Below are positions 1 through 13,240 of a stretch of 20,000 nucleotides of DNA, piece by piece. The notes under the pieces were generated by a model. It was not told where the DNA came from. It worked only from the letters and a program-made list of their open reading frames with translations, and did not search any database. Every line of letters begins with the position of its first letter. The stretch's first letter is position 1. The position numbers and the translations under genes are program-made. The stretch lies in sequence record SRR31156797_2189; one strand, given 5' to 3'.

Positions 1-891
1 CTTGTCAAGCAGGCGCATCACCACCCGTTCGCCAAAAGCGGTAGGCAATGTAGAGACACGGATATCTATATTTTTATCGGCAATACGAATCTCGATTCGC
101 CCATCCTGGGGCAGCCTCTTCTCCGCAATATCCATCTTCGCCAGTATCTTGACACGAGAAATTAACTTTCCCAAAACATGCCTGGGTGGCGAATACATAT
201 CGTAAAGAATGCCATCGACCCTTTTCCTGATCTTGACCCTATTTTTATAAGGCTCGATATGCACGTCACTTGCATTATCACGCACCGCCTGTGAAAGCAC
301 CAGATTCACCAGCTTGATCACGGGTGCATCGCTGGTATCATCCAACAAGTCTGCAGTTTCTTCTATCTGGGAAAAGATGCTATCAGGGTCTTCTTCATGC
401 ATATCCTGCATAACCTGATCTGCAGCATCGTCACTGGTCATGTCATAGGCAGTATTGATAGCTATGAAAATTTCATTTTGGGGTGCCAGTACCATTTCCA
501 TTCCTTCCCATTGCAGCAGGCGTTTGAGATCATCAAGCTGCTGTACAAAAAAGGGCTCTGCAAGGGCAACATACGAACGCTCTGGCGTTGCCACCGGAAT
601 CATCTTAAAACGTTTAAGATAACCAATAGGTACCCGCTTAACAAAAAAGGGCTCAATTTCTTTTGGCAGGGTCGTAATCACTTCCAAGTTGCATTGAATG
701 CTTCTTGCCTGCAGCAATTCCTCTTCCGTTACCAGCTTCTCCAATATCAGGATCTCACCTATACGGCCCCCCTTTTCCTTCTGGCTCTCCAAGGCGGCGA
801 CAAGAGCTGTTTCATCCAACCCGAACTGCTCCTGTAATATTTTTCCGATCGGCTGCATATCCCCAACCATTGTTCCAGGATTACCTTTCAT
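1..891 (-). CDS. gspE: Type II secretion ATPase GspE, 5' part (runs off the left edge; not in the ORF track)
   Basis: Manual translation from ATG 891 (alternative starts 870, 858) is open to position 1 and includes DAPVIKLVNLVLSQAVRDNASDVHIEP, MDIAEKRLPQDGRI and DIRVSTLPTAFGERVVMRLLDK, hallmark GspE/PilB motifs. It lies directly downstream of gspD. Confidence 0.95.
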   Translation of the reverse strand, partial: MKGNPGTMVGDMQPIGKILQEQFGLDETALVAALESQKEKGGRIGEILILEKLVTEEELLQARSIQCNLEVITTLPKEIEPFFVKRVPIGYLKRFKMIPVATPERSYVALAEPFFVQQLDDLKRLLQWEGMEMVLAPQNEIFIAINTAYDMTSDDAADQVMQDMHEEDPDSIFSQIEETADLLDDTSDAPVIKLVNLVLSQAVRDNASDVHIEPYKNRVKIRKRVDGILYDMYSPPRHVLGKLISRVKILAKMDIAEKRLPQDGRIEIRIADKNIDIRVSTLPTAFGERVVMRLLDK

Positions 892-939
892 ACAATTTGC
901 CGACTGCCAAGTTTCTTACTCTGTCCATTTATCGCCATG

Positions 940-3195
940 CTATTGTTGCCCACCACCGGTACGCAGGTGCTCTATGTTGTCTCGAGCAAGCTCCTTTAAG
1001 GCATCATAGGGACTTTGCTGCCACTCATCCTGCTGTTCCTTGCCAGAATCCAATTCCAGGACTTTTTCATACATTTCTCTCGCTCCGGCCACGTTGCCTT
1101 CACGTTCGTAAACAACCCCCAGATTAATGGTGGCGTAAGGGTTTTCAGGATCAATACCCAGGGCCTGAACAAAATAGTCCTTCGCCTCTAAAAATTCACC
1201 ACGCTGCAGTTTGGCAAACCCGAGGTCAGTGAGCGCGGCAGCATGCTCCGAATTTGGTTTTCTATGAAAAAACTGATCAGGTATTTCTGAAGACCCCGGC
1301 TGTACCTGCTCAATGAGATCACGCTTTTGATAGTAAATCTGTGCTACCTCGGCCGGATTTTGAACGATATGGGGGGTGATAAAGATGAACAAGTTTGTTT
1401 TAGTTTCTTTCTCGCTACGAGACTTAAACAGCCAACCGAGGAGGGGAATATCGCCGAGCAGCGGCACTTTGTACTCCCCTGTATCGGTATCCTGGCCAAT
1501 CATCCCTCCCAGGACCACGGTTTCCTCGTTATGAACGACCACAGTCGTATCAGCTGTCCTGGTAAAGGTCGTAGGGCGTCCTTCTTCTGCCCCAGATTTA
1601 ACCTTGATCACCTCCACTCCGATTTCCAAGCGAACCACATCGGCTTGGTTAATCTGGGGGGTAATGGTCAACGTGGTAGCGACATCCTTATATTCATAGT
1701 TGGTGTAATCCTGCTGAGCTGTCGTTGTATTTTGACTGGTAATATAAGGGACATTTTCCCCCACCTTGATGACAGCCTTCTTATTATCAGTGGTTAAAAT
1801 CTGTGGGGTAGCTATAATATTAACATCTTCATCTTGCTTATAGGCATTGATAACCGCCCCCAGGTTGGGAAAAGTAATACCTGCTATCTCCACCCCCTGC
1901 TTCAATACCCCCATGGTAAATCCCGAAGGCAAAACAGGAGGTGTTTCGTTAAACCCCTGCAGAACCCCGTAGGGGTTATCTTTGGTACCACTAAAACCGC
2001 CTATTACCGTACCGGTTTCATCAGCAAAAGACCCAGAGCCGCCATACTGAATCCCTAGTCCAAAATCTTTAGTAACCTGCACTTCCATAATAAGGGCTTC
2101 CATATAGACCATGCGCCGCGGGATATCCAACTTCTTGATAACATCCTCAAGGACCAGGTATTCCTCTCTGGGAGCAGTAATAATCAAGGCATTGGTTTCA
2201 GGATCCGCCATTATCTGTGTGTCAGAGGACAGCAGTGGCCCAGCCTTTCCGGGGGCCTGCTTGGTGCCGGCTGTATTCTTCCCAGGCAGGCTGGTCAAGA
2301 CCTTGACCATTTCTTCAGCATTGGCATGCTGAAGATAATACACACGTATCTTACCCTCACCCCTGGGGACTTGACGATCAAGCTCCTTGAGTAAATTCTG
2401 AATCTTATCAATTTGCGCCTTTGGAGCGAAAATAATCAATTGGTTGGTGCGTTCGTAAGGAATAACTTTAATTGTTTCCGTTCGCTTCCCTTTTACAACT
2501 CGTTTTGCAAATAATTCCCGAATGGATTTGGCTACTGTGACCGCATCAGCATGTTCCAGGGTAATGGTCACGGTCTCCTCGCCGATGGATGGGACATCAA
2601 CGACCTTAATTATTTCCATCAACCGTGAAATATTGGACTGCACATCAGTAATAATCAGCATTCCCGATTGAGCATGGGAAATAAGAACACTGGTTTTAGA
2701 AACAAGAGGAGACAGAATTTTCTTGAGGTCATCTGCGTTGGAATGGATCAGGGGTATGATCTGGGTCACGACCCGATCTTCCGGCATGTCAGCATCACCC
2801 TGGTACAGGGTTGAAATATTTTTAGATCGAGCCTGAACAGCAGGTACAATTTTGATCACCGAACCACTTGGGATGGTTGTAAAACCATGGACCTCCAACA
2901 CAGATTCAAAAACCCGGTAGGCATCTTCTTCGCTGATCCTGGTTGGGGAAATAATGGTCACATTGCCTTTCACAGCCCTATCGACAATAAAGTTTTTCCC
3001 TGTGAGTTCGCTGATATATTTTATAAATAAATTAATGTCGACATCATTAAAATCGATAGTAACATACTTTTGCGGTGCCATTTTCCGCGATGCTCCGTAC
3101 ACTTCGCCGAAACTACCGGTGAAAAGCAGACAGCAACTCAAGCAAACCAGAGATAAAACCAATTTCTTTATCATAAAGCCACACCCGCTCTTCAT
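940..3195 (-). CDS. gspD: Type II secretion secretin GspD with a C-terminal TPR extension
   Basis: Signal peptide, N0 domain (IDFNDVDINLFIKYISELTGKNFIVD), N1-N3 repeats and secretin motif KVPLLGDIPLLGWLFKS...NLFIFITPHIV. Start moved from TTG 3264 to ATG 3195, which has an AAGGGG RBS. Confidence 0.96.
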   Translation of the reverse strand: MKSGCGFMIKKLVLSLVCLSCCLLFTGSFGEVYGASRKMAPQKYVTIDFNDVDINLFIKYISELTGKNFIVDRAVKGNVTIISPTRISEEDAYRVFESVLEVHGFTTIPSGSVIKIVPAVQARSKNISTLYQGDADMPEDRVVTQIIPLIHSNADDLKKILSPLVSKTSVLISHAQSGMLIITDVQSNISRLMEIIKVVDVPSIGEETVTITLEHADAVTVAKSIRELFAKRVVKGKRTETIKVIPYERTNQLIIFAPKAQIDKIQNLLKELDRQVPRGEGKIRVYYLQHANAEEMVKVLTSLPGKNTAGTKQAPGKAGPLLSSDTQIMADPETNALIITAPREEYLVLEDVIKKLDIPRRMVYMEALIMEVQVTKDFGLGIQYGGSGSFADETGTVIGGFSGTKDNPYGVLQGFNETPPVLPSGFTMGVLKQGVEIAGITFPNLGAVINAYKQDEDVNIIATPQILTTDNKKAVIKVGENVPYITSQNTTTAQQDYTNYEYKDVATTLTITPQINQADVVRLEIGVEVIKVKSGAEEGRPTTFTRTADTTVVVHNEETVVLGGMIGQDTDTGEYKVPLLGDIPLLGWLFKSRSEKETKTNLFIFITPHIVQNPAEVAQIYYQKRDLIEQVQPGSSEIPDQFFHRKPNSEHAAALTDLGFAKLQRGEFLEAKDYFVQALGIDPENPYATINLGVVYEREGNVAGAREMYEKVLELDSGKEQQDEWQQSPYDALKELARDNIEHLRTGGGQQ

Positions 3196-3278
3196 ATAAC
3201 AGCCCCTTTCACAACTCCACCTCTTATAACCGGAAACACAGCCTCTTTTAACAACCTGCGACAAACTGACGTTCTCTA

Positions 3279-4007
3279 TTACTTTTCAAGAGCCGCCTCA
3301 AACTCTTCACTCTCCTCATCTACGAATTCCTCTAGACCTTCGTCTTCAGCCATGAGAGGCTCCTCGGGTTCCTCCACCGCTTCTGGAAGCTGTGTACGCC
3401 CTTCCCGAAAGCTGATACGTCTTTTAGGCCTCACCACAGGGACCCTTTTTTGAGCAGCGGCTCTCCCCTTGTTTTGCGTAACCGTTCGTCCTCTGTTGGC
3501 GATAGGGGCTGGAGGGCCGCCCCCTCCCTTTCTTTCCTTAATGCTCAGAGATTCAGTGCGTCCATTCACATCCAAGATCACTCTTCCTCTGCCAATCTTT
3601 CGTATCCTGGCATTTTGCACGCTATCCCCGATACGAAAAAGATCCTGCTTTTTTTCCTGTTCATCGATGATAATCGCTCGGGCATCCATATCATCACCGA
3701 CAACGGTACCGAGCAGCACCAGCTTCAATGAAGTTTCTTCATGGTTTTCATCTTCAGCAGGAAGAGGCTCCTTGTCACCTATCTCCAACAATGCCTGGAA
3801 AATATTTCTGCTGACAATGACCTCATAATCCCCCGACGGAACTGAATTAACGACAACTGTTGCACTTCTATCCTCAGCAGGTTTGACAACCTCGCTCCCT
3901 GCAGGAATAAGTGCCACAAGCCCCTGTTCAACCCGCTCGTACCAAAGAGATACCCCTACGTAGACCAAGGTTGTCAGGGAAAGAATGGTTAACAGTACCC
4001 GTATCAC
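3279..4007 (-). CDS. gspC: Type II secretion protein GspC (TM + HR domain, no PDZ)
   Basis: N-terminal TM, HR domain (LKLVLLGTVVG...AIII...FRIGDSV...VILDVNGRTESL), position immediately upstream of gspD, GTG start with GGAG RBS. Confidence 0.88.
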   Translation of the reverse strand: MIRVLLTILSLTTLVYVGVSLWYERVEQGLVALIPAGSEVVKPAEDRSATVVVNSVPSGDYEVIVSRNIFQALLEIGDKEPLPAEDENHEETSLKLVLLGTVVGDDMDARAIIIDEQEKKQDLFRIGDSVQNARIRKIGRGRVILDVNGRTESLSIKERKGGGGPPAPIANRGRTVTQNKGRAAAQKRVPVVRPKRRISFREGRTQLPEAVEEPEEPLMAEDEGLEEFVDEESEEFEAALEK

Positions 4008-4009
4008 TG

Positions 4010-4942
4010 TTACTGCTCCGTCCTGATTGTCGCAGCCTGAAACAATGAAGACAACTCACCAAAGTTAACTCCTGGGTGAACTGCGTCTCCAGTAATCTTA
4101 AACGCTGCTCCTTCATCCTGCAGTTGAGTCCGCATTATGGACAAAAGCTCACCACCGGTTACATGAGCAAAAAACTCAGTTCGTGGTATCATAGTTCCGA
4201 CAAAATCCAAGGCAGTTTCAGCATAAGGAATGCGCGGCTCAATTTCCCCTGTAAAGTTTGCGGTGAACAATTTCGATGCCACCTGTCCCCCCTTAACAAA
4301 CAGTTTTTCCTCATTGCCCGTTACAATAAAATTCAACTGCGAAAAAGGGAGCAATTTATGACCAAGAATATCTTTCTTCAGCCCCACTTGACCGTTATCA
4401 ATACTCACTTTCACATCCAGATCATTTACCGATGTGAGGTTGCCCTGCACCTTACCCTTAAATTGTGCGTTGATATTCCCCTGAATTTCTCTTTCCAGAA
4501 TTTCTTTTATGCCGCTGACCGAACCAAGCTGCACATCTTTGAGCTGCCCTGCAACAGCAAAGGCACCCATGTTTTGATTTGACCTAACGCTTCCAGAGAC
4601 ACTCCCCCCACTGACCTCTGCTGTATAGCTTATTTCAGGCTGTCGACTCAACAGACTGGCAACTTCCGGTTGCAGTTCAAAGGTTTCAACCTTCAACAAC
4701 CCATTGCTCTCTGCAGATGAAAAAATCTCCATCCCCCTCAGGACCAGTTTTCCAGGAAAACCAATTTCCACCTTAGCCAACTCCACCCTCGCGTGTGGGA
4801 AACGTGCAGTTAGATAGTCTGGAATCCACTGCTGAAAAAAATCCGCAGGAAACAGTACCCACAACATGACAACGGTAGCTGTTACCGTATACAAGGAATA
4901 CCCCATTATATTTCTTCCCCAACGGAGAGTCTTTGCTATCAT
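4010..4942 (-). CDS. gspN: Type II secretion protein GspN
   Basis: N-terminal TM ending WVLFPAD followed by a beta-rich periplasmic region; lies between gspM and gspC as in deltaproteobacterial-type T2SS clusters. Confidence 0.8.
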   Translation of the reverse strand: MIAKTLRWGRNIMGYSLYTVTATVVMLWVLFPADFFQQWIPDYLTARFPHARVELAKVEIGFPGKLVLRGMEIFSSAESNGLLKVETFELQPEVASLLSRQPEISYTAEVSGGSVSGSVRSNQNMGAFAVAGQLKDVQLGSVSGIKEILEREIQGNINAQFKGKVQGNLTSVNDLDVKVSIDNGQVGLKKDILGHKLLPFSQLNFIVTGNEEKLFVKGGQVASKLFTANFTGEIEPRIPYAETALDFVGTMIPRTEFFAHVTGGELLSIMRTQLQDEGAAFKITGDAVHPGVNFGELSSLFQAATIRTEQ

Positions 4943-5015
4943 CAGCCAGCACTCACATGCATTTATTTGTGTTGATCACGACCACGGGATACCTACTGAC
5001 ATTCTTTCCCCCTCT

Positions 5016-5552
5016 CTAGTTAACAGTACTGACAACCTTATCAACGCTGACAATCTGCAAAATAACATCCAGAGTACCTTCCTCCTTATTGTTCTCCTGA
5101 ATAGTAATGCGTTTGATACCGACCAGATTTTGAGGAGACTCTGTGGTTTTAAGAAAAGCAACAAGCTGTTTAAGACTTATAGCCTGTAATTTCATTTCAA
5201 CCATACTTTGCTTCAGCACCTCATCAGCAGTGAGCTCCGAGGGCTTCATATATGCAATCCGCTCTTTAATCTTAATATCGTCCGCATTTTTCTCTAAAAA
5301 AGAAAACAGGCTGAACCCGGCTACACGTTCATTAAGCTGACTGGCAATGGAATTGCTTTTTTGACTGAAAAGGGCATAACGCTGCTGCATTTGTTCCATT
5401 TCACCAAGCTGTCGCTGCCGGGTGACAACATTTTTTTTCATTTTTTCACGATTTTCCACCAAAGGGAAAAAGATGAATTGCAGGAGCAAAAAAAATGCAA
5501 GACTGACCCCTGCAATGATCACAGCGTTCTTTTCCCGTGATGTCATCTGCAT
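5016..5552 (-). CDS. gspM: Type II secretion protein GspM
   Basis: TSREK N-terminus, TM, coiled coil, ferredoxin-like C-terminus (LKQLVAFL); start overlaps the gspL stop (TGATG). Confidence 0.88.
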   Translation of the reverse strand: MQMTSREKNAVIIAGVSLAFFLLLQFIFFPLVENREKMKKNVVTRQRQLGEMEQMQQRYALFSQKSNSIASQLNERVAGFSLFSFLEKNADDIKIKERIAYMKPSELTADEVLKQSMVEMKLQAISLKQLVAFLKTTESPQNLVGIKRITIQENNKEEGTLDVILQIVSVDKVVSTVN

Positions 5553-7015
5553 CAGCTCTCACCCAACTCCAGTTGTATCTCAAACCGGATCTTCCTGGTC
5601 TTTTTATCTGCTGTTGCAGATACAATCTGCACGCCACTGTACAATGGGGACTGTGACAAAAGACTTTTAATTTCATTAACCGTATTAAAGGTAGCCGTCA
5701 TCCCACGTATGCGTATTGCCTTTTGATCTATCACCATTCTTGAGACTTGGAGCGACAAAGTATCTGGGATGCGTGATGAAATATCTGCCAGAAAGTCCAA
5801 TATCCTTTGCTGGTCGGTATAAACAGGCATGTTGGTTTCAGAAGACTCCAGTTCTCTCAGGGCAACCTTCATCTGCACGTAAGGATCCTGGATACGGGTA
5901 GCACGGGTAAACTGCTCCCGGTAGAGCAGTTCCATCTGCTGCCGTAACCGATGACTCTTTGCGGTTAAATTTCTATTTTCGAGAGTGTAATAGCCGACAA
6001 TACAACCTATACAAACAAGGATAGCTGCTGCCGCTGCGGTTACCTGCTTCCTTGACTTAAAAATTGTCTTCTTGGGCGCCAGCTCTCCCTGCCGGAAATT
6101 AAATCCCGTATTCTTGCCCACTCGATAGAGCGAGAGGCTCAACGCTGCAGCAAATTCTCCCCGCGGTAGGCTGTCGGTATCCTCTGGAACATTGAGCTCC
6201 ACCAAGGAAGTGAGATCCACATGCTCCACCACCGTCCCCAACTGTAGTTCTAGCGCGCTGCACACCTCTGCATTTTCGATAAAATCTCCGGTTACAAGCG
6301 TTTGCTCTAGTTTGTCTACCGGAAAACCCATGGATTGCAGAAAACCCATCGTTCGGCCTACAGCCTGCTGAAACACCTCCAACTGTGCCCCAATATCGTT
6401 AACATCATACCCGTCATGCATCATCTGTGGCAGAGCAGGTAATTTACGACAGAACTGACAAATACCGTTGTGGATCAACAACAGGGTAGCTGAGGTAGTA
6501 TAAGCCTCCAATATAAGGTGCCACCCTTTCTTAAAATGGTGTCCAACTAACTCTGCAACAGCAACCGCAGCAGGCAGGACAACTTCAGGCTCGGCACCAT
6601 GTTGTTGGAGGCGGTCAAGGACATCACCCACCATCGCTTTTTCGGCGGCAAAAGCAAGGAGAGTGCTGCTAGAATTTGTTTTCCCAAGTATATTAAAATC
6701 TGTGACCACGTCTTCCATGGGCTGGATCAATTGATCTTCCAACTCAAAAGGCAGGGTCTGGGTAATATTTTTTTTATCGGAAAAAGGCAGCTCCAAACTG
6801 CGCACACTCACAGCAGCAAGCGGCAGCCCGCAAACACATTCTCCACCTTGCCAGCCAAGCTTTTCAAGAAGTCCTTCCACCGGTGCAGCTGCATCATCCG
6901 AGGGAAAGGGGACAGAAGCACTAGAGTCCAGCACCACGGTCTTGCCCTGTTGTTCTGTCACAACACCAGTAAGGCAATCGTCACCGTAATATAACCCAAG
7001 AAACTTCTTATTCAT
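5552..7015 (-). CDS. gspL: Type II secretion protein GspL
   Basis: Cytoplasmic actin-like region (RSLELPF...LPFELEDQL), single TM, and PilN-like periplasmic C-terminus (IRIRGMTATFNTVNEIKSLL). Confidence 0.9.
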   Translation of the reverse strand: MNKKFLGLYYGDDCLTGVVTEQQGKTVVLDSSASVPFPSDDAAAPVEGLLEKLGWQGGECVCGLPLAAVSVRSLELPFSDKKNITQTLPFELEDQLIQPMEDVVTDFNILGKTNSSSTLLAFAAEKAMVGDVLDRLQQHGAEPEVVLPAAVAVAELVGHHFKKGWHLILEAYTTSATLLLIHNGICQFCRKLPALPQMMHDGYDVNDIGAQLEVFQQAVGRTMGFLQSMGFPVDKLEQTLVTGDFIENAEVCSALELQLGTVVEHVDLTSLVELNVPEDTDSLPRGEFAAALSLSLYRVGKNTGFNFRQGELAPKKTIFKSRKQVTAAAAAILVCIGCIVGYYTLENRNLTAKSHRLRQQMELLYREQFTRATRIQDPYVQMKVALRELESSETNMPVYTDQQRILDFLADISSRIPDTLSLQVSRMVIDQKAIRIRGMTATFNTVNEIKSLLSQSPLYSGVQIVSATADKKTRKIRFEIQLELGES

Positions 7016-7092
7016 CTCTGTCTCGTTAACTTCCCAATTTGTAATTATTTAGCGAATAACAAAAAACTCGTATCAACCTCGACCTGTAATTG

Positions 7093-7214
7093 TTGAGCAG
7101 TGCTCAAAAGCCGTATAAGCAGGATGAAAACGATAGCAATGCTACGTTTTCCTGCCTGATCGTGGGAAGAGGTAAACGCGGACTCCCCAGGGTGCTGCTG
7201 AACAGTTACCCTGG
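7093..7214. repeat. Three inverted repeats in the gspK-gspL spacer
   Basis: TTGAGCA-G-TGCTCAA (7093-7107, perfect); GCAGG..AAAACG.TAGC-AAT-GCTA-CGTTTT-CCTGC (7119-7155); CCAGGGT...ACCCTGG (7187-7214). Confidence 0.75.
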
Positions 7215-7215
7215 T

Positions 7216-8274
7216 TTATTGAATCCGCCAGTGCAGAAGTGTCTGCTCCATGTTTTCTGCTCGCAGGAGTACCCCCCTGCCAATGCGCTTAGCGCCGTCG
7301 TCTTCGGCTGTAAGGGTAACGGCAAAGGCCTTGGCCGTGGTTGTAAGCAGAGCTTCATCCAGTGTTATATCCCCGGGAAAACCACTGACCCCTCTGTACC
7401 AGGATATGGCTTTAAGATTTTCGCTATTATCCGGCTCTTCCCTATATGCTTTCAAATCGCTAATCATTTCTTCACTCAACTCAGGTTCCAGGGCTGCTAG
7501 AACCGTTCCTGGAGCTGTATTCAAATTAATTTTGCCGTCATCAACCGCTACGGTAATATACCCTCCAATGCCCTCATACTCTTCGTCACCATAAAAAAGC
7601 TCAGGTGTCATACCCTTTACAAACAAAAGTTCTTCTATTGCCAGCATGGGTCCATTTCGACAAGTGTATCCTGGAGAGAGTGATTGATAATATGCATTTT
7701 CCGCGCCATTTCCTCGTGCTTCATCATCTTCATCTATCCAATCACGAATGGCATCAAGTAAATCTATCACCTGCTGCTCATCATCAATTGCAAATTTCCC
7801 GGAGAGCAGGAATCTTGTCCAAACTTGTTCGACCTTTTCAGCCTGCTCTCTCTTCTCTTGAGCAGAAGTCGGTTTTTCACTGTCTTGCCCATTCTCGCCT
7901 TGATCAGATGAGACAGGTTTTTCCAGCAGGGCATGAATCTGTAATTTTCCTGAAAGATCATCCACAGCGCATGTCAGGGAAATCCCACCTGTCAACGCAG
8001 CAAGCTGTTCTCCATCAATGGTGGCCCAGCTATCGAGAAGGGAATCGTAACTATTGACCTGCTGATCACTATATAGGGCAGCCTGAACTATATTAAGCCC
8101 GGTATACACTGCACTTTCCAAAGCGAGTGTTTTCTGAACCACCGCAGCATCTTCAATCTGCCCGTCAACATCAACCAGCAGCTGCATGGTCATGGTCACC
8201 AAAAAACTCACGGTTAACAGGGCCAACAACAGAGCCACACCTTTTTGATTCTTGAGCAAATGTCTATTGCTCAC
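7216..8274 (-). CDS. gspK: Minor pseudopilin GspK
   Basis: QKG|VALLLALL prepilin site, DAIRDWIDEDD, NGPMLAIEELLFVKG and GKINLNTAP motifs. Confidence 0.95.
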   Translation of the reverse strand: MSNRHLLKNQKGVALLLALLTVSFLVTMTMQLLVDVDGQIEDAAVVQKTLALESAVYTGLNIVQAALYSDQQVNSYDSLLDSWATIDGEQLAALTGGISLTCAVDDLSGKLQIHALLEKPVSSDQGENGQDSEKPTSAQEKREQAEKVEQVWTRFLLSGKFAIDDEQQVIDLLDAIRDWIDEDDEARGNGAENAYYQSLSPGYTCRNGPMLAIEELLFVKGMTPELFYGDEEYEGIGGYITVAVDDGKINLNTAPGTVLAALEPELSEEMISDLKAYREEPDNSENLKAISWYRGVSGFPGDITLDEALLTTTAKAFAVTLTAEDDGAKRIGRGVLLRAENMEQTLLHWRIQ

Positions 8275-8944
8275 TCCTGGCCTCCTTTATAATACTGGCG
8301 GTGGGCAACCATACCCCGGAACGAAAAGAAAGAGCAGCTTTGCGCTCGCTGCTCTGCCAGAATTCCAGCGTAATAAAAATTGCTGCCGGCATGAGGACAC
8401 GCTCCTGCTCCCCGTCTTTATCCGGCACGCTCTCCCATGTGTCATTTTTTTGACCATCCGAGTCCAAGTAGGTCAATTCCAGAGATCGAAGATTTGCACA
8501 CAAAGTGTACCCCCTTTGCTCATCACTCTCCTCGGTAAATATTGATAGGCTGTCTGACCTGAGCAGTTTCAATGATCCTTGTTCATTTTCATCTTCTACC
8601 ACTTCATAACTGATAGTGGTGCTCCCTTTATCTGGTCGCCCACCATCAAAAACCAAATGAGCCATAGAACTAAAAATCACACTATCTGCCCGCTGACCAT
8701 TAATCTCATTTTTCGCACCCACAAACCCAACCTCCCCATCGGCAACTGCAGCAGTCAAATCTTCTCTCATCCTCTCCAGGGTAATTCGTGCCTGACGATA
8801 AATATCTTTTTGATTTCCAGTTGCAGTGAGAAGGGATACCGTACTGCTTAAGGCAAAGCCGACCATGGAACTCACCACTGCCAAGATTGATACGGCAAGC
8901 ATTACCTCCAGTAAGGTGAAGCCCCTGTTAGTTATTCTGATCAT
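8264..8944 (-). CDS. gspJ: Minor pseudopilin GspJ
   Basis: RG|FTLLEVMLAV N-methylation motif and ERMREDL; start moved to ATG 8944; lies between gspI and gspK. Confidence 0.88.
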   Translation of the reverse strand: MIRITNRGFTLLEVMLAVSILAVVSSMVGFALSSTVSLLTATGNQKDIYRQARITLERMREDLTAAVADGEVGFVGAKNEINGQRADSVIFSSMAHLVFDGGRPDKGSTTISYEVVEDENEQGSLKLLRSDSLSIFTEESDEQRGYTLCANLRSLELTYLDSDGQKNDTWESVPDKDGEQERVLMPAAIFITLEFWQSSERKAALSFRSGVWLPTASIIKEARSEQ

Positions 8945-9353
8945 CGGGAACAATTTTTTTAAAAATCGTGGCATGTACCGTAAGGTATTGCTTTTCATCT
9001 TCAACAAAGGCAACAGTTAAAATAAGTTGCTTCAGCATCCCGCCAGCTTCTGGGATGCCGATGTCATCTTCAGACACGGGGAGAACTTCTGCACTCCAGG
9101 AAAATTCGGTAAACCCCTCTTCAAAAGCTCCGCTGTCGCTCGCTACCTGCTCAAAGTCCTGCAAACGAATCTCTGCAATTTTCTTCTGGGCCAGCAAAGC
9201 AGCAACCGTATCAAAACGGGCATCAGTGGCAACAGAAATTGTTTGCGACTGTGACCCCAAAAGGCTGACCAGAGCAATTGCCAATACTGCAACGGCAATC
9301 ATCACCTCAAGCAGGGTGAACCCATGTGTATAAGGCATTCGGTACAATTTCAT
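8928..9353 (-). CDS. gspI: Minor pseudopilin GspI
   Basis: HG|FTLLEVMIAVAVLAIAL and AALLAQKKIAE; start moved to ATG 9353 (alternative 9338). Confidence 0.88.
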   Translation of the reverse strand: MKLYRMPYTHGFTLLEVMIAVAVLAIALVSLLGSQSQTISVATDARFDTVAALLAQKKIAEIRLQDFEQVASDSGAFEEGFTEFSWSAEVLPVSEDDIGIPEAGGMLKQLILTVAFVEDEKQYLTVHATIFKKIVPDDQNN

Positions 9354-9360
9354 GGAAAGG

Positions 9361-9897
9361 CTACCGAAAGGTATCCTCTTTAAGGGATAAATATCCCTGA
9401 TGGATTGTGACATTCCCGACAAAGGGGGACAATTTGAGCGTCATTTGGTCGCCGCCCTGATCCCGGATATGGATCAAGCACGGTTCAAGGTAGCCTTTGT
9501 CGCTGAAACGTAACGAAAAAGCCCCAGAGGTTTTTTTTTCTGCTGCTGCAAAGGAAACATCTGTAAGTACCACTGAATCAGGAAATTGGAGGGTTGGGAG
9601 GTTATCTTGTTCATCATTTACAAGATCCTCTTCTCCAGGCACTTTTTTTTCGACAGGCAGCACCTTGAAACGGCGAGCCTGGGAATCATATTCTAAAAAA
9701 TAAGGTTGTGATGTGCGCACCGCCAACCGGGATGTCTGGGTAATCAGTAAGGTAAGTTTGCGGGCTGTCTGCTTAAGAGGGTCGCTGAAAACAAAGTTGG
9801 AAAAACGAGGCACGGCAAAGGCCATGGTTACTCCAATGAGCACCATGACCAATACCAGCTCGATGAGAGTGAACCCTCTCATGTTTTGAACAGTCAA
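9361..9897 (-). CDS. gspH: Minor pseudopilin GspH
   Basis: RG|FTLIELVLVMVLIG...AVPRF; follows gspG; start TTG 9897 or ATG 9882. Confidence 0.85.
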   Translation of the reverse strand: MTVQNMRGFTLIELVLVMVLIGVTMAFAVPRFSNFVFSDPLKQTARKLTLLITQTSRLAVRTSQPYFLEYDSQARRFKVLPVEKKVPGEEDLVNDEQDNLPTLQFPDSVVLTDVSFAAAEKKTSGAFSLRFSDKGYLEPCLIHIRDQGGDQMTLKLSPFVGNVTIHQGYLSLKEDTFR

Positions 9898-9925
9898 TTT
9901 ACTCCCTTAAACACACCACAAGGGT

Positions 9926-10390
9926 CTACTCGATTTCCCAGTTGTTAATATCAGCATCATTGCCATCACCGCCAGGTTCGTTATCCGGTCCGTAACTGAT
10001 CAGGTCAAACTCTCCGTTAAGACCTGGGCTTATATAGATAAAATCGTTGTCCCAAGGATCGGATGGAACCTTTCCCTTCTCCAAATAGCCACCGTCACGC
10101 CACCTCTTGGCCAGGCGACCAACAGAAGGCGGTTCAACCAAGGCCTGCAATCCTTGCTCGGTTGACGGATACTGCCCATTATCAAGCTTGTACAATTTTA
10201 GGGCTTGCTCAAGCGAACCAATCTGAATGGCCGCCTTAGTCCTTCTGGCTTCTTCCGGCCTGTCCATGATGCGGGGGACTATAAGTCCGGCAAGAATCCC
10301 CAGAATAACCATAACCACCATCAACTCTATAAGGGTGAAGCCCTGCTTGTTCCAAAGCCGTCTGTCCCCGGTACATTCCTTCATAAACAC
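9926..10390 (-). CDS. gspG: Major pseudopilin GspG
   Basis: QG|FTLIELMVVMVILG, ALKLYKLDNGQYPSTEQGLQAL, DPWDNDFIY and GDGNDADI; GTG start with GAGGAG RBS. Confidence 0.97.
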   Translation of the reverse strand: MFMKECTGDRRLWNKQGFTLIELMVVMVILGILAGLIVPRIMDRPEEARRTKAAIQIGSLEQALKLYKLDNGQYPSTEQGLQALVEPPSVGRLAKRWRDGGYLEKGKVPSDPWDNDFIYISPGLNGEFDLISYGPDNEPGGDGNDADINNWEIE

Positions 10391-10433: not shown

Positions 10434-13112
10434 TTAACGCTGCACCCACATACTCAAAATTCGACCGGTTCGCACAGTCAAATACCCGACCAGCAATCCC
10501 CCTGTCACACTTGTACCCACTGCCGACCATATCCCCATATGCAGAGCCAGCCATGAAAAAACGATAACCGGCAGCAACAACATTCTTACAATAAACCGCA
10601 TCCACGCCCTGGAGGCAATATAATCTGCCACAGGCGGAGAAACCGCATAATAAAAATCCACGAATTTCCTTCCCTGCTCAACCTGCAGGAGATATGCATC
10701 CCTGAAGTCACGAAGAACTTTCACCATGGGATGAAATACTGAGCCATAGGAAGCGGTGGCAATAAAACAGGAATCATCAGTCCTGAAAGTGAGTTCATCT
10801 CCGTAAAAAACGGTACCGCCAACGACGGCATACGCCCGCACATAAAAAGTTGTTCCAGGCTGGAGGTTTGTCAAAATTGAACTGTATCTGCCGCTCCCGC
10901 TCCCGTCTTCGGTTTCGCCTTCCTTCACAAAAGTGCTGGTAGATGAGGATCCAAAAAGCCCATCAGAGTCTCCTTCGCTGGTATCATCATCTGCTGCCAC
11001 GGCCTCGGCCACCAAAAAATTCCCGGTCGTCCGTAACATTTTTTCGAGCATGGCTGTTGTTGTATCCACGTTAACGGTAAATGCCACTGAAGAAACAGCT
11101 TCCTCTCCATCGCTGGTTTGACACCGCACATAATAAGTATAACTACCATCAGCGAGATCAGAAAGGTCTGTACTGTGGGTTGTGGTACTGGAACTGGTTA
11201 TTACTGTCATCGAGTCGAAATCGGCGTCTTCTCCTGAGTTATAACGACACGTACTTGAAAGGGAGGTAGTGGCAGAAAGGGTAACAGTCGCTGTCGTAAC
11301 TTCTTCGCCACTGCTCGGATTAGTGATGGTGACAGTGAATTCGTCATCGGACCCACTACCACTGCCCTTGTATTGCGGGTAAGGTGCAATATTGAAAACC
11401 ACACCCTTTGCGGTGACCGTCCCTAAACCGGACAAAATCTCTCCACCTGTCAAGGCACCGGTTCTGGTTACTTCACTAACCGGGATAGTACGAATATAAC
11501 TACTAGTTGCAGCTGCAAGAGAGGTAACAGTGGAGTCAGATAATTTTGTTACTGTCAGCGTCTCGGTGTCATTGCTGTCGGTAGAGGTTCCGACCACCAC
11601 CACTTCACCATTTTCCAGGACAGTCAGCGCGTTGCCAGCAGAATCACCATTTTCCGAGGCAAGAATCGTTACCTGTGCCTCATCGGATTCACTATCGGTA
11701 AGTTCTGCTGCTACAGCCCTACCAACGAAGAAAGAAGAAAGCTCATCAATAACTAAATGGAGTAACGATTGTATTCCTGAAATATCCTGAGGGCCTTCCA
11801 ACAAGGCAGTATCTGCATCGTTAATGCTGCCCCCGTCCTCACCATTTAAAAAGCTATCAAAAGAATCCTGCATCTGAATTTCCTGAGCATGTTCAGAAGT
11901 AGACCCATCTTCAAAGGTTCCGGGAACAACCTGCAAATCAGACACCTGAATTGGCTCCTCCAAGGCATCACCATTTTGATCTTGCTCAATGGTATCAACC
12001 GCATTACCGCCACTCAAGCTATAAGTCCCGACAAGAACATTACGAATCCCCGATCGGGTCGCAAACCCTGTAAAAGCAACCTTTGCGTCATTAAGTATTT
12101 TCACATCATACAAGGCATCATCTTCAGGCCCCGCATAAATTGAAACAACCCCAGAGCCATTAAAAGATGTATCTAGTACTCCATTTGCAGTAAAGCGAAA
12201 CAACTCCGCATCGAACTGATTGTCGTTTTCCACAGACGCCGCAAGGTATATTTGCCCTTCTTCTGTTGCTGTAATACCATAGCCCTCAGAGTTACCGACT
12301 ATGTCCGAAGCAACGGCAACGCCCTTGATGCCAAAGCTTGTATCAGTAACGCCATCGGCAGTCACCCCTACCAAAGCAAGAGATGTTTTTTGGTCTTCGG
12401 AGTATGAGCCAGAGATGACAATTCTACCGCTTTCCTGCACCAAAACACCTTCAGCTACTGCATCATCCCCAATACCGATCAGGCTTAACCCCTCTTCGCC
12501 AAAACCAGCATCCAAGGTGCCGTCATCATAAAAACGACCAACCACAATTATGCTTCCACTTGTCCCTTCAGCCACGCCCGCAATAATAATTTTATTATCT
12601 TGAGTAACGCCAAGCGCGGTAATCTCATCGTGACCGCTCCCAACCTGCATAACCACTGAGCCTTGGTCGCCAAAGCTGTTGTCAAGAGTCCCGTCTGGAA
12701 AATAACATGCCAGGGCAAAATCGCGATCCGTGTCACTTTCACTGTAGCCTGCAGCAACAATTCTTCCATCGGCAAGCAGGCCAACTGATAAAATTTCATC
12801 ATCCGCCAGCCCGATGGGTGTCACCACCCTACCGTCAAAATTAAATGACGGATCATAGCTGCCGTCTGCCAGGTAACGGATGAGCGAAAAATCCTGATCT
12901 GCAGTGCTGGACTTTGACCCGGCTACGATAATTGCTCCATCAGATTGTACAACAACTGCAAACCCTTTATTACTTATCCCCCCGAAGGACTCACTAATCT
13001 GCCCACTATCGCCAAAAGCAGTGTCTAGAGTATAGGCCCCGAACGCAAACTCAGTACAAAAAAGAAACACCACCAGTAAAATCCACCAGCTAAGAATATT
13101 TATTTTTCGCAT
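10434..13112 (-). CDS. Large secreted surface protein with delta-60 (DUF5122-type) propeller repeats, nested Ig/FN3-like domains and a CFI-box-CTERM tail
   Basis: Signal peptide (…EFAFG|A); six ~57-aa repeats starting DGxLDxxFgxxG plus a split seventh; LQPGTTFYVRAYA FN3 motif; C-terminal CFIATASYGS...VLRDFRDAYL...FYYAVSPPVA followed by hydrophobic segments and basic residues. Start moved to ATG 13112 (GGAG RBS). Confidence 0.9.
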   Translation of the reverse strand: MRKINILSWWILLVVFLFCTEFAFGAYTLDTAFGDSGQISESFGGISNKGFAVVVQSDGAIIVAGSKSSTADQDFSLIRYLADGSYDPSFNFDGRVVTPIGLADDEILSVGLLADGRIVAAGYSESDTDRDFALACYFPDGTLDNSFGDQGSVVMQVGSGHDEITALGVTQDNKIIIAGVAEGTSGSIIVVGRFYDDGTLDAGFGEEGLSLIGIGDDAVAEGVLVQESGRIVISGSYSEDQKTSLALVGVTADGVTDTSFGIKGVAVASDIVGNSEGYGITATEEGQIYLAASVENDNQFDAELFRFTANGVLDTSFNGSGVVSIYAGPEDDALYDVKILNDAKVAFTGFATRSGIRNVLVGTYSLSGGNAVDTIEQDQNGDALEEPIQVSDLQVVPGTFEDGSTSEHAQEIQMQDSFDSFLNGEDGGSINDADTALLEGPQDISGIQSLLHLVIDELSSFFVGRAVAAELTDSESDEAQVTILASENGDSAGNALTVLENGEVVVVGTSTDSNDTETLTVTKLSDSTVTSLAAATSSYIRTIPVSEVTRTGALTGGEILSGLGTVTAKGVVFNIAPYPQYKGSGSGSDDEFTVTITNPSSGEEVTTATVTLSATTSLSSTCRYNSGEDADFDSMTVITSSSTTTHSTDLSDLADGSYTYYVRCQTSDGEEAVSSVAFTVNVDTTTAMLEKMLRTTGNFLVAEAVAADDDTSEGDSDGLFGSSSTSTFVKEGETEDGSGSGRYSSILTNLQPGTTFYVRAYAVVGGTVFYGDELTFRTDDSCFIATASYGSVFHPMVKVLRDFRDAYLLQVEQGRKFVDFYYAVSPPVADYIASRAWMRFIVRMLLLPVIVFSWLALHMGIWSAVGTSVTGGLLVGYLTVRTGRILSMWVQR

Positions 13113-13240
13113 GAGCAAAGTCTCCATCTCGCTATTCAATTTACGGCTTTTTTTGCATCTAAAAGCAATAGTGATTTGCCGAGGTCACAATTTTCATTCT
13201 TGGATGGCCGAGTCAAAAAAGCATCGGCCTAAAACTATTA

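What the first reader, a model, noticed from the sequence alone, without database searches (positions are those of the whole stretch)
10970..11775. Two internal signal-peptidase-like motifs suggest the surface protein is a processed polyprotein
Seen: two segments about 240 aa apart align without gaps, SLLHLVIDELSSFFVGRAVAAELTDSESD (~11682-11768) and AMLEKMLRTTGNFLVAEAVAADDDTSEGD (~10969-11055), with 10/29 identities and core F-[FL]-V-x-x-A-V-A-A-[ED]. Each is an amphipathic helix, then an A-x-A site, then an acidic low-complexity stretch. Established: A-x-A|A is the type I signal peptidase c-region consensus. Inference: these are membrane-surface helices cleaved in the periplasm without a TM h-region, which would cut the protein into three chains. 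Both motifs lie in inserts that interrupt folded domains (next finding), so the chains could stay together by domain complementation. I know of no description of this for a T2SS cargo.
Basis: partly seen in the sequence, partly recalled or inferred. Interest (0 to 1): 0.8.

Follow-up and report, generated by a model that had tools for sequence, protein, structure and literature searches.

The report
Repeated signal-peptidase-like motif in surface protein
A short sequence that looks like the cutting site of a secretion signal occurs twice inside exposed loops of a large envelope protein encoded at the head of a type II secretion operon; it is real and conserved, but whether it is ever cut is untested.

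Summary
Their pairwise likeness alone is within chance (23 of 300 shuffles reach it). Homologues make it real. Both are copies of one about 25-aa module: an amphipathic helix, then G/S-x-[FL]-[FL]-V-x-x-A-x-A-[A/Q/E], then an acidic or Thr-rich tail. The module cores are as conserved as the folded domains, while their flanks drift. Module 2 arose once in a Desulfobulbaceae clade and is kept in 24 of 27 rows. Module 1 arose once in a nested clade and is kept in 7 of 7. AlphaFold2 places both in low-confidence loops that interrupt a beta-propeller and an FN3-like domain. In five whole genomes the module occurs only in this gene. The -3/-1 pattern fits type I signal peptidase specificity, but the hydrophobic stretch is far weaker than in real signal peptides and the topology is non-canonical. 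My best reading, at 0.35, is an Ala-x-Ala-type processing site. A non-cleaved docking motif is nearly as likely. Cleavage, the three-chain idea and T2SS cargo status remain inference.

The parts
10434..13112 (-). Gene for the delta-60-repeat / CFI-box-CTERM envelope protein. The ORF is open from TTG at 13139; the likely start is ATG at 13112 (residue M10), where homologues begin.
13038..13112 (-). N-terminal signal peptide (residues 10-34, ending A-F-G before AYTLD). The cleavage point is inferred.
   Evidence: sequence; helix 3-19 in the model; hydrophobicity of homologues' N-termini
12018..13034 (-). Beta-propeller blades made of delta-60 / DUF5122 repeats (residues 36-374).
11676..12017 (-). 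Insert 1 (residues 375-488), a low-confidence loop between the propeller body and its last blade. Its C-terminal part carries module 1.
   Evidence: mean pLDDT per 10-residue block 34-57
11700..11777 (-). Module 1: amphipathic helix (residues 455-471) plus core FFVGRAVAAE (470-479). A475 is position -3 and A477 is -1. The candidate scissile bond is A477|A478 (codons 11709-11711 | 11706-11708).
11535..11675 (-). Last propeller blade (residues 489-535), which resumes after insert 1.
   Evidence: strands 480-526 of the model, pLDDT 87-97
11391..11495 (-). N-terminal half of the FN3-like domain (residues 549-583).
11073..11333 (-). Ig-like domain (residues 603-689) inserted in a loop of the FN3-like domain. 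It is absent from short orthologues.
   Evidence: Pfam Y_Y_Y / Big_13 listed for relatives
10986..11060 (-). Module 2: amphipathic helix (residues 694-707) plus core GNFLVAEAVAADD (706-718). A713 is position -3 and A715 is -1. The candidate scissile bond is A715|A716 (codons 10995-10997 | 10992-10994).
10923..10985 (-). Acidic / Ser-Thr low-complexity linker after module 2 (residues 719-739). The same loop is low-complexity in orthologues without the module.
10782..10922 (-). C-terminal half of the FN3-like domain (residues 740-786, with PGTTFYVRAY).
10437..10769 (-). CFI-box-CTERM domain (residues 791-859) and the hydrophobic helical tail to residue 901.
   Evidence: 93 bits, cut-off 40
1..10390 (-). 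Downstream T2SS genes on the same strand: gspG, three pseudopilin genes, gspK, gspL, gspM, one ORF without a family, gspC, gspD with a TPR tail, and gspE (cut by the window end).
   Evidence: synteny; no terminator-like site in the 43-bp gap to gspG

Best explanation
The two segments are copies of one short linear module that is private to this gene family. The module is an amphipathic helix of about 13-17 residues, a G/S-x cap, a hydrophobic triplet [FL]-[FL]-V, two variable and often helix-breaking residues, then A-x-A followed by A, Q or E and an acidic or Thr-rich disordered tail. It was installed twice, each time in a loop of a folded domain that already tolerated variable sequence. It has been kept under purifying selection while staying unstructured in the monomer. 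That is the signature of a site read by another protein. It would bind residues -7 to +1 as an extended strand and cut after A477 and A715. Because both sites lie in loops inside domains, the pieces could stay together. What is shown: the module exists, is conserved, is family-specific, sits in predicted disordered loops, and matches the -3/-1 rule. What is inferred: that it is cleaved, by which enzyme, and what follows from cleavage. My odds are 0.95 that the module is real and functional, 0.35 that it is cleaved at or next to A-x-A, and about 0.2 that the enzyme is signal peptidase I itself.
For: Conservation, with no motif selection: the cores score 0.66 and 0.70 against flanks at 0.36-0.47 in 17 homologues. 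In the 88-row alignment, module 1 is present in 26 rows. Position -1 is Ala in 26 of 26. Position -3 is Ala in 21 and Val in 5. Position +1 is never Pro. Among regex-picked distinct instances (21 of module 1, 67 of module 2), -2 is highly variable (V, I, Y, M, H, F, L, R, E, A, N, Q), -5 is mostly G, P, S, A or T, and +1 is A, Q, V or E. Off-pattern variants found by the HMM still carry only small residues at -1 and -3, for example A-H-G and A-L-A|G. Evolution: module 2 was gained once at the base of a 27-row clade and is kept in 24 rows. Module 1 was gained once in a nested 7-row clade and is kept in all 7. Branch support is 99 in both trees. Module 2 persists with one, two or three Ig domains before it, and also with none (P0148, P0151, P0123, P0114), so it is not an appendage of the Ig domain. 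The two modules resemble each other outside the regex-fixed core. In-register helix scores average +1.9 to +3.9, against -10.6 +/- 7.5 for shuffles. Accessibility: both cores are coil with pLDDT below 50 in two AlphaFold2 runs, one of them using an alignment of 36 module-bearing rows only. Type I signal peptidase genes are present in relatives' genomes.
Against: No cleavage data exist. The hydrophobic stretch is too weak for a membrane-inserted h-region. Peak Kyte-Doolittle means over 10 residues are 1.62 and 1.44 (maximum 2.29), against 3.13 (minimum 2.55) for the N-terminal signal peptides of 16 homologues. Over 19 residues they are 1.09 and 0.82 (maximum 1.51), against 2.10 (minimum 1.84). 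The sites follow an already exported propeller, so a canonical N-in/C-out presentation to signal peptidase I is not expected (inference). The AgrD/SpsB precedent for cutting behind an amphipathic surface helix was not upheld (passages of PMC9388083). The module is dispensable. In the tree, 29 of 53 rows have no module 2, including the 22-row sister group, which mostly keeps the same T2SS synteny, and three rows lost it. Among 14 shorter relatives no natural split gene was found; I read the top five, and none begins at a module. The instance sets behind searches were picked with a regular expression that fixes the core, so those counts are partly circular.
Confidence: 0.35

Rival explanations
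1. A non-cleaved docking motif. The helix and the following strand fold only on binding a partner: a T2SS part, the second CFI-box protein of the genome, or another copy of the same protein. Having two copies would give avidity.
For: The module is a conserved island in predicted disorder, with a clear amphipathic helix pattern. It is private to this gene in 5 of 5 whole genomes searched; the next best hit has E = 0.06, as expected for a dedicated partner. The gene heads a T2SS operon in 41 of 54 loci. Each of five genomes holds exactly one other CFI-box protein.
Against: An invariant small-x-small pair with a free -2 position is unusual for helix docking and is the hallmark of a signal-peptidase-type subsite pair. 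No partner co-varies with the module. The TPR tail of GspD and the T2SS genes are present with or without it. Cable-bacteria loci keep the module although the T2SS genes are no longer adjacent.
Confidence: 0.3
2. Signal peptidase I cuts both sites on membrane-surface helices without a transmembrane h-region. This gives three chains held together by split-domain complementation in a T2SS cargo.
For: The same c-region evidence as above applies. Both sites lie in loops inside folded domains. The CFI-box tail would tether the protein near the inner membrane, where the enzyme sits; the domain is and the location is inference.
Against: The hydrophobicity is weak. The helix of module 1 is acidic rather than basic. 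The AgrD/SpsB precedent was not upheld. Cargo status and chain complementation are untested.
Confidence: 0.2
3. An in-plane membrane anchor. The amphipathic helix and the F-F-V patch dip into a membrane leaflet to orient the protein, with no cleavage and no protein partner.
For: The hydrophobic moment is about 0.46, against 0.23 for shuffles. The helix of module 2 often carries K or R at -16 and -13. The position is membrane-proximal, next to the CFI-box tail.
Against: The helix of module 1 carries D, E and H on its polar face. The invariant A-x-A and the strongly acidic tail are not explained. AlphaFold2 gives no long helix through the core.
Confidence: 0.1
4. No function: a chance resemblance between two linkers, or relics of signal peptides left by old gene fusions.
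For: The pair in this one protein is within chance. Both segments sit in variable, low-complexity loops.
Against: The cores are as conserved as folded domains over 40-80% identity. Each has a single origin with long retention. The module follows the inserted Ig domain rather than preceding it, and the FN3-like halves belong to one domain, so a fused N-terminal signal peptide does not fit.
Confidence: 0.05

Closest known systems
C-region and cleavage site of Sec signal peptides, read by type I signal peptidase (family S26)
   Same: Ala at -3 and -1, a free -2, helix-breaking or polar residues at -5/-4, hydrophobic residues just upstream, a helix before that, no Pro at +1, and an acidic or neutral stretch after the site.
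   Different: The module is internal, about 440 and 680 residues behind the real signal peptide. The hydrophobic stretch is short and far less hydrophobic. There is no N-terminal basic region. It follows an exported domain.
Bacterial polyproteins with an internal signal peptide, such as the cytochrome b/c1 precursor FbcH of Bradyrhizobium
   Same: One ORF would be cut at an internal signal-peptidase-type site into chains that work together.
   Different: In FbcH the internal signal is a true membrane-spanning segment after a membrane protein domain. Here the preceding domain is a soluble exported propeller, and the sites lie inside domains rather than between them.
AgrD amphipathic leader of S. 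aureus, once assigned to signal peptidase SpsB
   Same: A membrane-surface amphipathic helix was proposed to be followed by a signal peptidase cut without a transmembrane h-region.
   Different: Reconstitution and an spsB deletion argued against SpsB, and MroQ was assigned instead (passages of PMC9388083). The precedent therefore does not stand.
GlyGly-CTERM / rhombosortase surface proteins of the Vibrio cholerae T2SS (VesB)
   Same: An exported protein with a C-terminal sorting domain that includes a membrane segment is linked to a T2SS and needs proteolytic processing (abstract start of PMC6219818, seen in the listing).
   Different: The tail here is a CFI-box-CTERM domain, not GlyGly-CTERM. 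Its processing enzyme is unknown. The modules studied here are internal, not C-terminal.
Short linear motifs / binding-coupled folding elements in disordered regions (general concept, recalled)
   Same: A short conserved island inside fast-evolving, predicted disordered sequence.
   Different: These are mostly described for eukaryotic cytosolic proteins. This one lies in loops of periplasmic or surface domains of a bacterium.

Membership tests
Type I signal peptidase substrate site (signal peptide) | Small uncharged residues at -1 and -3 | tested here: met
   Module 1 has Ala at -1 in 26/26 rows and A21/V5 at -3. Module 2 has Ala at -3 in 54 of 67 filled rows and at -1 in 56 of 68; the other rows are module-less sequences aligned there. 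Regex-picked sets give 66/67 and 66/67.
Type I signal peptidase substrate site (signal peptide) | No Pro at +1 | tested here: met
   There is no Pro at +1 in the 26 module 1 rows or in the filled module 2 column.
Type I signal peptidase substrate site (signal peptide) | Hydrophobic h-region able to sit in the membrane | tested here: not met
   Peak Kyte-Doolittle means are far below those of the true signal peptides of 16 homologues, with no overlap of the ranges.
Type I signal peptidase substrate site (signal peptide) | N-terminal position with a basic n-region and N-in/C-out topology | tested here: not met
   The sites are at residues 477 and 715, behind an exported propeller. The helix of module 1 is acidic.
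Type I signal peptidase substrate site (signal peptide) | Actual cleavage after -1 | not testable with these tools
   This needs MS or blots. SignalP is not available here.
Delta-60 repeat / DUF5122 beta-propeller proteins | Repeats matching TIGR02608 / PF17164 above the cut-off, and a propeller fold | tested here: met
   178.9 bits against cut-off 76.5 and 101.5 bits against cut-off 27. The propeller is modelled at pLDDT above 90. The top structural matches are propellers such as CylK.
CFI-box-CTERM proteins (NF041770) | C-terminal domain starting C-F-I-A-T-A, with a hydrophobic tail, scoring above the cut-off | tested here: met
   93 bits against cut-off 40, residues 791-859.
T2SS substrate (cargo) | Export that depends on the T2SS | not testable with these tools
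   Only synteny is available: gspG lies directly downstream in 41 of 54 loci.
Short linear motif in a disordered region | Short conserved island flanked by poorly conserved, predicted disordered sequence | tested here: met
General sorting or processing signal shared by many proteins of a genome | Occurs in several unrelated proteins of the same genome | tested here: not met
   A module profile searched in 5 whole genomes hits only this gene (E 1e-9 to 1e-7). The next best hit has E = 0.06.

The most novel reading that the evidence does not exclude
A signal-peptidase-type (Ala-x-Ala) cleavage module has been installed twice into loops inside folded domains of an exported protein. A single-chain precursor would then be cut in the periplasm into three chains that stay assembled by split-domain complementation: a propeller minus its last blade, and an FN3-like domain in two halves. 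The C-terminal chain would keep the CFI-box membrane tail. This would be a way to make a multi-chain envelope protein linked to a T2SS, and a signal peptidase substrate class with no transmembrane h-region.
Probability: 0.2. Interest if true: 0.75.

Novelty: new variant of a known kind. Interest (0 to 1): 0.5.

Why it matters
If the sites are cut, this would be an internal, loop-embedded substrate class for an Ala-x-Ala protease. It would also be a bacterial example of a precursor turned into a non-covalent multi-chain protein by nicking inside domains. If the sites are not cut, the module is a conserved docking element in a protein that heads the T2SS operon across Desulfobulbales, and it could give a handle on how that system recognises its partner. 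Either way the test is simple, because the candidate new N-termini are defined and Desulfogranum marinum is available as a named strain (DSM 2058). The family also contains cable-bacteria proteins that keep module 2.

Tried and rejected
1. Pairwise significance: the single pair does not exceed shuffles, so the case rests on homologues.

2. Whole genome of the window: none is held, so I used genomes behind related loci instead.

3. Module as a general signal: rejected, because no other gene in 5 genomes carries it.

4. Module as a structural return linker of the Ig insert: rejected, because fragments P0148, P0151, P0123 and P0114 carry it without an Ig domain and AlphaFold2 does not dock it.

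5. Co-variation with the TPR tail of GspD or with T2SS synteny: none found.

6. Natural split genes at the module: among 14 shorter relatives, the five best were read and all are internal-Met fragments that do not start at a module.

7. Recent intragenic duplication: the DNA shares only 39 of 87 bases.

8. Prepilin-peptidase, lipobox and rhomboid-type readings of the module: judged by eye against recalled consensus patterns and dropped. There is one extra residue between G and F, no conserved Glu at +5, no Cys, and a non-hydrophobic residue at P4.

9. Complex prediction of the D. marinum signal peptidase (L081) with module 2: the job waited in a full queue for many calls, was accepted, and came back NOT FOLDED. 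It gives no result either way.

10. ESM Atlas look-up of the module: no usable hit.

11. Earlier notes of this scan: nothing found.

12. Literature: 0 papers for 'CFI-box-CTERM', 'delta-60 repeat' and the four-term internal-signal-peptide query. One irrelevant paper turned up for DUF5122, and one search was irrelevant.

13. Foldseek against the PDB returned only generic propeller matches.

Full report
**What is there.** The finding lies in one long minus-strand ORF, window 10434-13139 (901 aa from a TTG; homologues begin at the ATG at 13112, residue M10). The protein has an N-terminal signal peptide. It has delta-60 / DUF5122 beta-propeller repeats (TIGR02608 178.9 bits, PF17164 101.5 bits) and a C-terminal CFI-box-CTERM domain (NF041770, 93 bits against a cut-off of 40, residues 791-859). 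Directly downstream on the same strand lies a T2SS operon: gspG, three pseudopilin genes, gspK, gspL, gspM, one ORF without a family, gspC, gspD with a TPR tail, and gspE. No terminator-like site lies in the 43-bp gap before gspG.

**The observation.** They align without gaps with 10/29 identities. By itself this is not beyond chance. The BLOSUM62 score of 42 is reached in 23 of 300 shuffles of residues 380-790 and in 12 of 100 shuffles of the whole protein. The DNA shares 39 of 87 bases.

**Homologues.**
- A search with residues 370-800 gave 35 proteins at E <= 0.001, among them proteins named by their sources as from Desulfogranum and Candidatus Electrothrix.
- In a MAFFT alignment of 17 of them (40-80% identity, no motif selection) the two cores have mean majority-residue fractions of 0.66 and 0.70. 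Their flanks score 0.36-0.47 and the folded domains 0.59-0.77.
- A scan of one genome per species gave 538 confirmed relatives, of which the best 80 were kept. Of these, L001-L054 are relatives from Desulfobulbales-type records, most matching nearly the whole protein. L055-L080 match only the FN3-like part.
- In an 88-row alignment, module 1 is present in 26 rows. Ala is at -1 in 26 of 26, -3 is A in 21 and V in 5, and +1 is never Pro. Module 2 has Ala at -3 in 54 of 67 filled rows and at -1 in 56 of 68. The remaining rows are module-less sequences aligned into those columns.

**Consensus.** The consensus is h-x-x-h-h-x-x-h-G/S-x-[FL]-[FL]-V-x-x-A-x-A-[A/Q/E]-[D/E/T]. It comes from regex-picked and hand-curated distinct instances, 21 of module 1 and 67 of module 2. 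The core of those sets is fixed by the regular expression, so the hhalign result (probability 97.4%) and the counts are partly circular. The helix part was not constrained. There, in-register scores of module 1 against module 2 average +1.9 to +3.9, against -10.6 +/- 7.5 for shuffles.

**Anatomy.**
- Two AlphaFold2 runs were made. One used the full protein with 88 rows (mean pLDDT 82.6). The other used residues 535-901 with 36 module-bearing rows (mean pLDDT 81.0).
- They give a propeller (residues 36-374) whose last blade (489-535) follows a low-confidence insert (375-488).
- They also give an FN3-like domain in two halves (549-583 and 740-786). These halves are separated by an Ig-like domain (603-689), a helix (694-707) and a disordered stretch.
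- Helices cover residues 455-471 and 694-707. The cores FFVGRAVAAE and FLVAEAVAAD are coil with pLDDT below 50 in both runs.
- Orthologues without the modules have an uninterrupted low-complexity loop at the same place in the FN3-like domain.
- The claim that both motifs lie in inserts interrupting folded domains therefore holds.
- Module 2 also occurs after two or three tandem Ig domains, and with no Ig domain at all (P0148, P0151, P0123, P0114). It is therefore not part of the Ig fold.

**Evolution and distribution.**
- Trees of 53 rows were built from the window plus 52 locus ORFs of at least 640 aa. The fragments L023 and L036 were left out.
- Module 2 needs three changes: one gain at the base of a 27-row clade and two losses. 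It is kept in 24 of the 27 rows.
- Module 1 needs one change: a nested 7-row clade, kept in 7 of 7.
- Branch support is 99 in both FastTree and IQ-TREE.
- A profile of the module searched in five whole genomes hits only this gene (E 1e-9 to 1e-7). The next best hit has E = 0.06.
- In the 235 proteins held at that point, all profile hits of 8 bits or more lie in proteins of this architecture. Module 2 sits 33-69 residues before the PGTxYYVRAY motif.
- gspG lies directly downstream in 41 of 54 loci. Of the 13 exceptions, three have under 300 bases of downstream sequence, and six cluster with cable-bacteria records.
- GspK and GspL homologues were found elsewhere in three of the four cable-bacteria genomes searched.

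**Interpretation.**
- A short, twice-installed, family-private island of conservation in exposed loops is most simply a site read by another protein.
- Its most specific feature is the invariant small-x-small pair with a free middle position, preceded by helix-breaking residues and a hydrophobic patch and followed by A, Q or E and acidic residues. That is the specificity of type I signal peptidase. Genes of that family are present in relatives' genomes.
- Against the canonical enzyme, the modules are far less hydrophobic than the real signal peptides of the family, with no overlap of ranges.
- They also follow an exported domain, so the usual membrane presentation is not expected.
- The one precedent I could name for cutting behind a surface amphipathic helix was AgrD and SpsB. 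It was not upheld in reconstitution or in a deletion strain (passages of PMC9388083).
- I therefore rate cleavage at A-x-A by some protease at 0.35, signal peptidase I itself at about 0.2, a non-cleaved docking motif at 0.3, a membrane-surface anchor at 0.1, and no function at 0.05.
- No natural split gene at a module was found among shorter relatives.
- The three-chain product, chain complementation and T2SS cargo status are inference only.

**Comparison with what is known.** The module works like the c-region of a signal peptide but is not a signal peptide, because it fails the h-region and position criteria. It resembles internal signal peptides of membrane polyproteins only in outcome. The link between a C-terminal sorting domain and a T2SS recalls GlyGly-CTERM / rhombosortase proteins (abstract start of PMC6219818), but the tail here is a CFI-box domain. 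Searches for 'CFI-box-CTERM' and 'delta-60 repeat' found no paper in the held library.

**Verdict.** The mechanism is plausible but unproven, and one of its defining requirements is not met. I give it moderate interest (0.5). The experiment is cheap and the candidate new N-termini are defined.

Noticed in passing
window 10740-10769 (residues 791-800): The CFI-box signature C-F-I-A-T-A-S-Y-G-S resembles the stretch I-A-T-A-A-F-G-S at the N-terminus of Providencia stuartii TatA, the natural substrate of the rhomboid AarA (peptide sequence seen in a passage of PMC10355837). In TatA it abuts the membrane helix; here the hydrophobic tail starts about 55 residues later. This is a resemblance only.
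   Followed up: partly
L007, L015, L019, L020, L026, L054: The cable-bacteria-type loci show no T2SS gene within their 3.2-10 kb of downstream sequence; four (L007, L015, L019, L026) also keep the upstream MoCF-domain gene, and L020 and L054 gave no hit to any neighbour query. GspK and GspL homologues lie elsewhere in 3 of 4 such genomes searched, about 157 kb away in G005.
   Followed up: partly
window 940-3264 (-): The secretin GspD carries a C-terminal TPR extension (TPR_1/TPR_2, residues about 675-741). The extension is found in 22 related loci, with or without the module.
   Followed up: partly
genomes G001-G005 (behind L001, L002, L012, L047, L054): Each of the five genomes has exactly two CFI-box-CTERM matches: this gene and a second ORF of 333-393 aa. 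The second protein has no module.
   Followed up: no
window 4010-4942 (-): A 310-aa ORF between gspM and gspC has no Pfam match. It is conserved at this position at 20-61% identity in many related loci. It may be a divergent GspN-like component.
   Followed up: no
window 10953-10964 (residues 726-729): A small second conserved patch, G-[LIV]-F, lies 11-14 residues after module 2. F729 is the majority residue in 0.88 of 17 rows, and the patch recurs in distant relatives.
   Followed up: no
window 11850-11990 (residues about 385-430): Insert 1 has an older part shared by orthologues that lack module 1, with patterns like P-V-x-V-S-x-L-Q-V and D-S-F-x-x-F. AlphaFold2 leaves it at low confidence.
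   Followed up: no
G001 (genome behind L001), L083: Besides the main signal peptidase I gene (174.8 bits), the D. marinum genome has a second match above the cut-off with an in-frame TGA (106.4 bits), and two weaker S26-like ORFs of 179 aa.
   Followed up: no
window 13112-13139: The mechanical ORF starts at a TTG 27 bases upstream of the ATG at which all aligned homologues begin. The ATG is the likelier start.
   Followed up: partly
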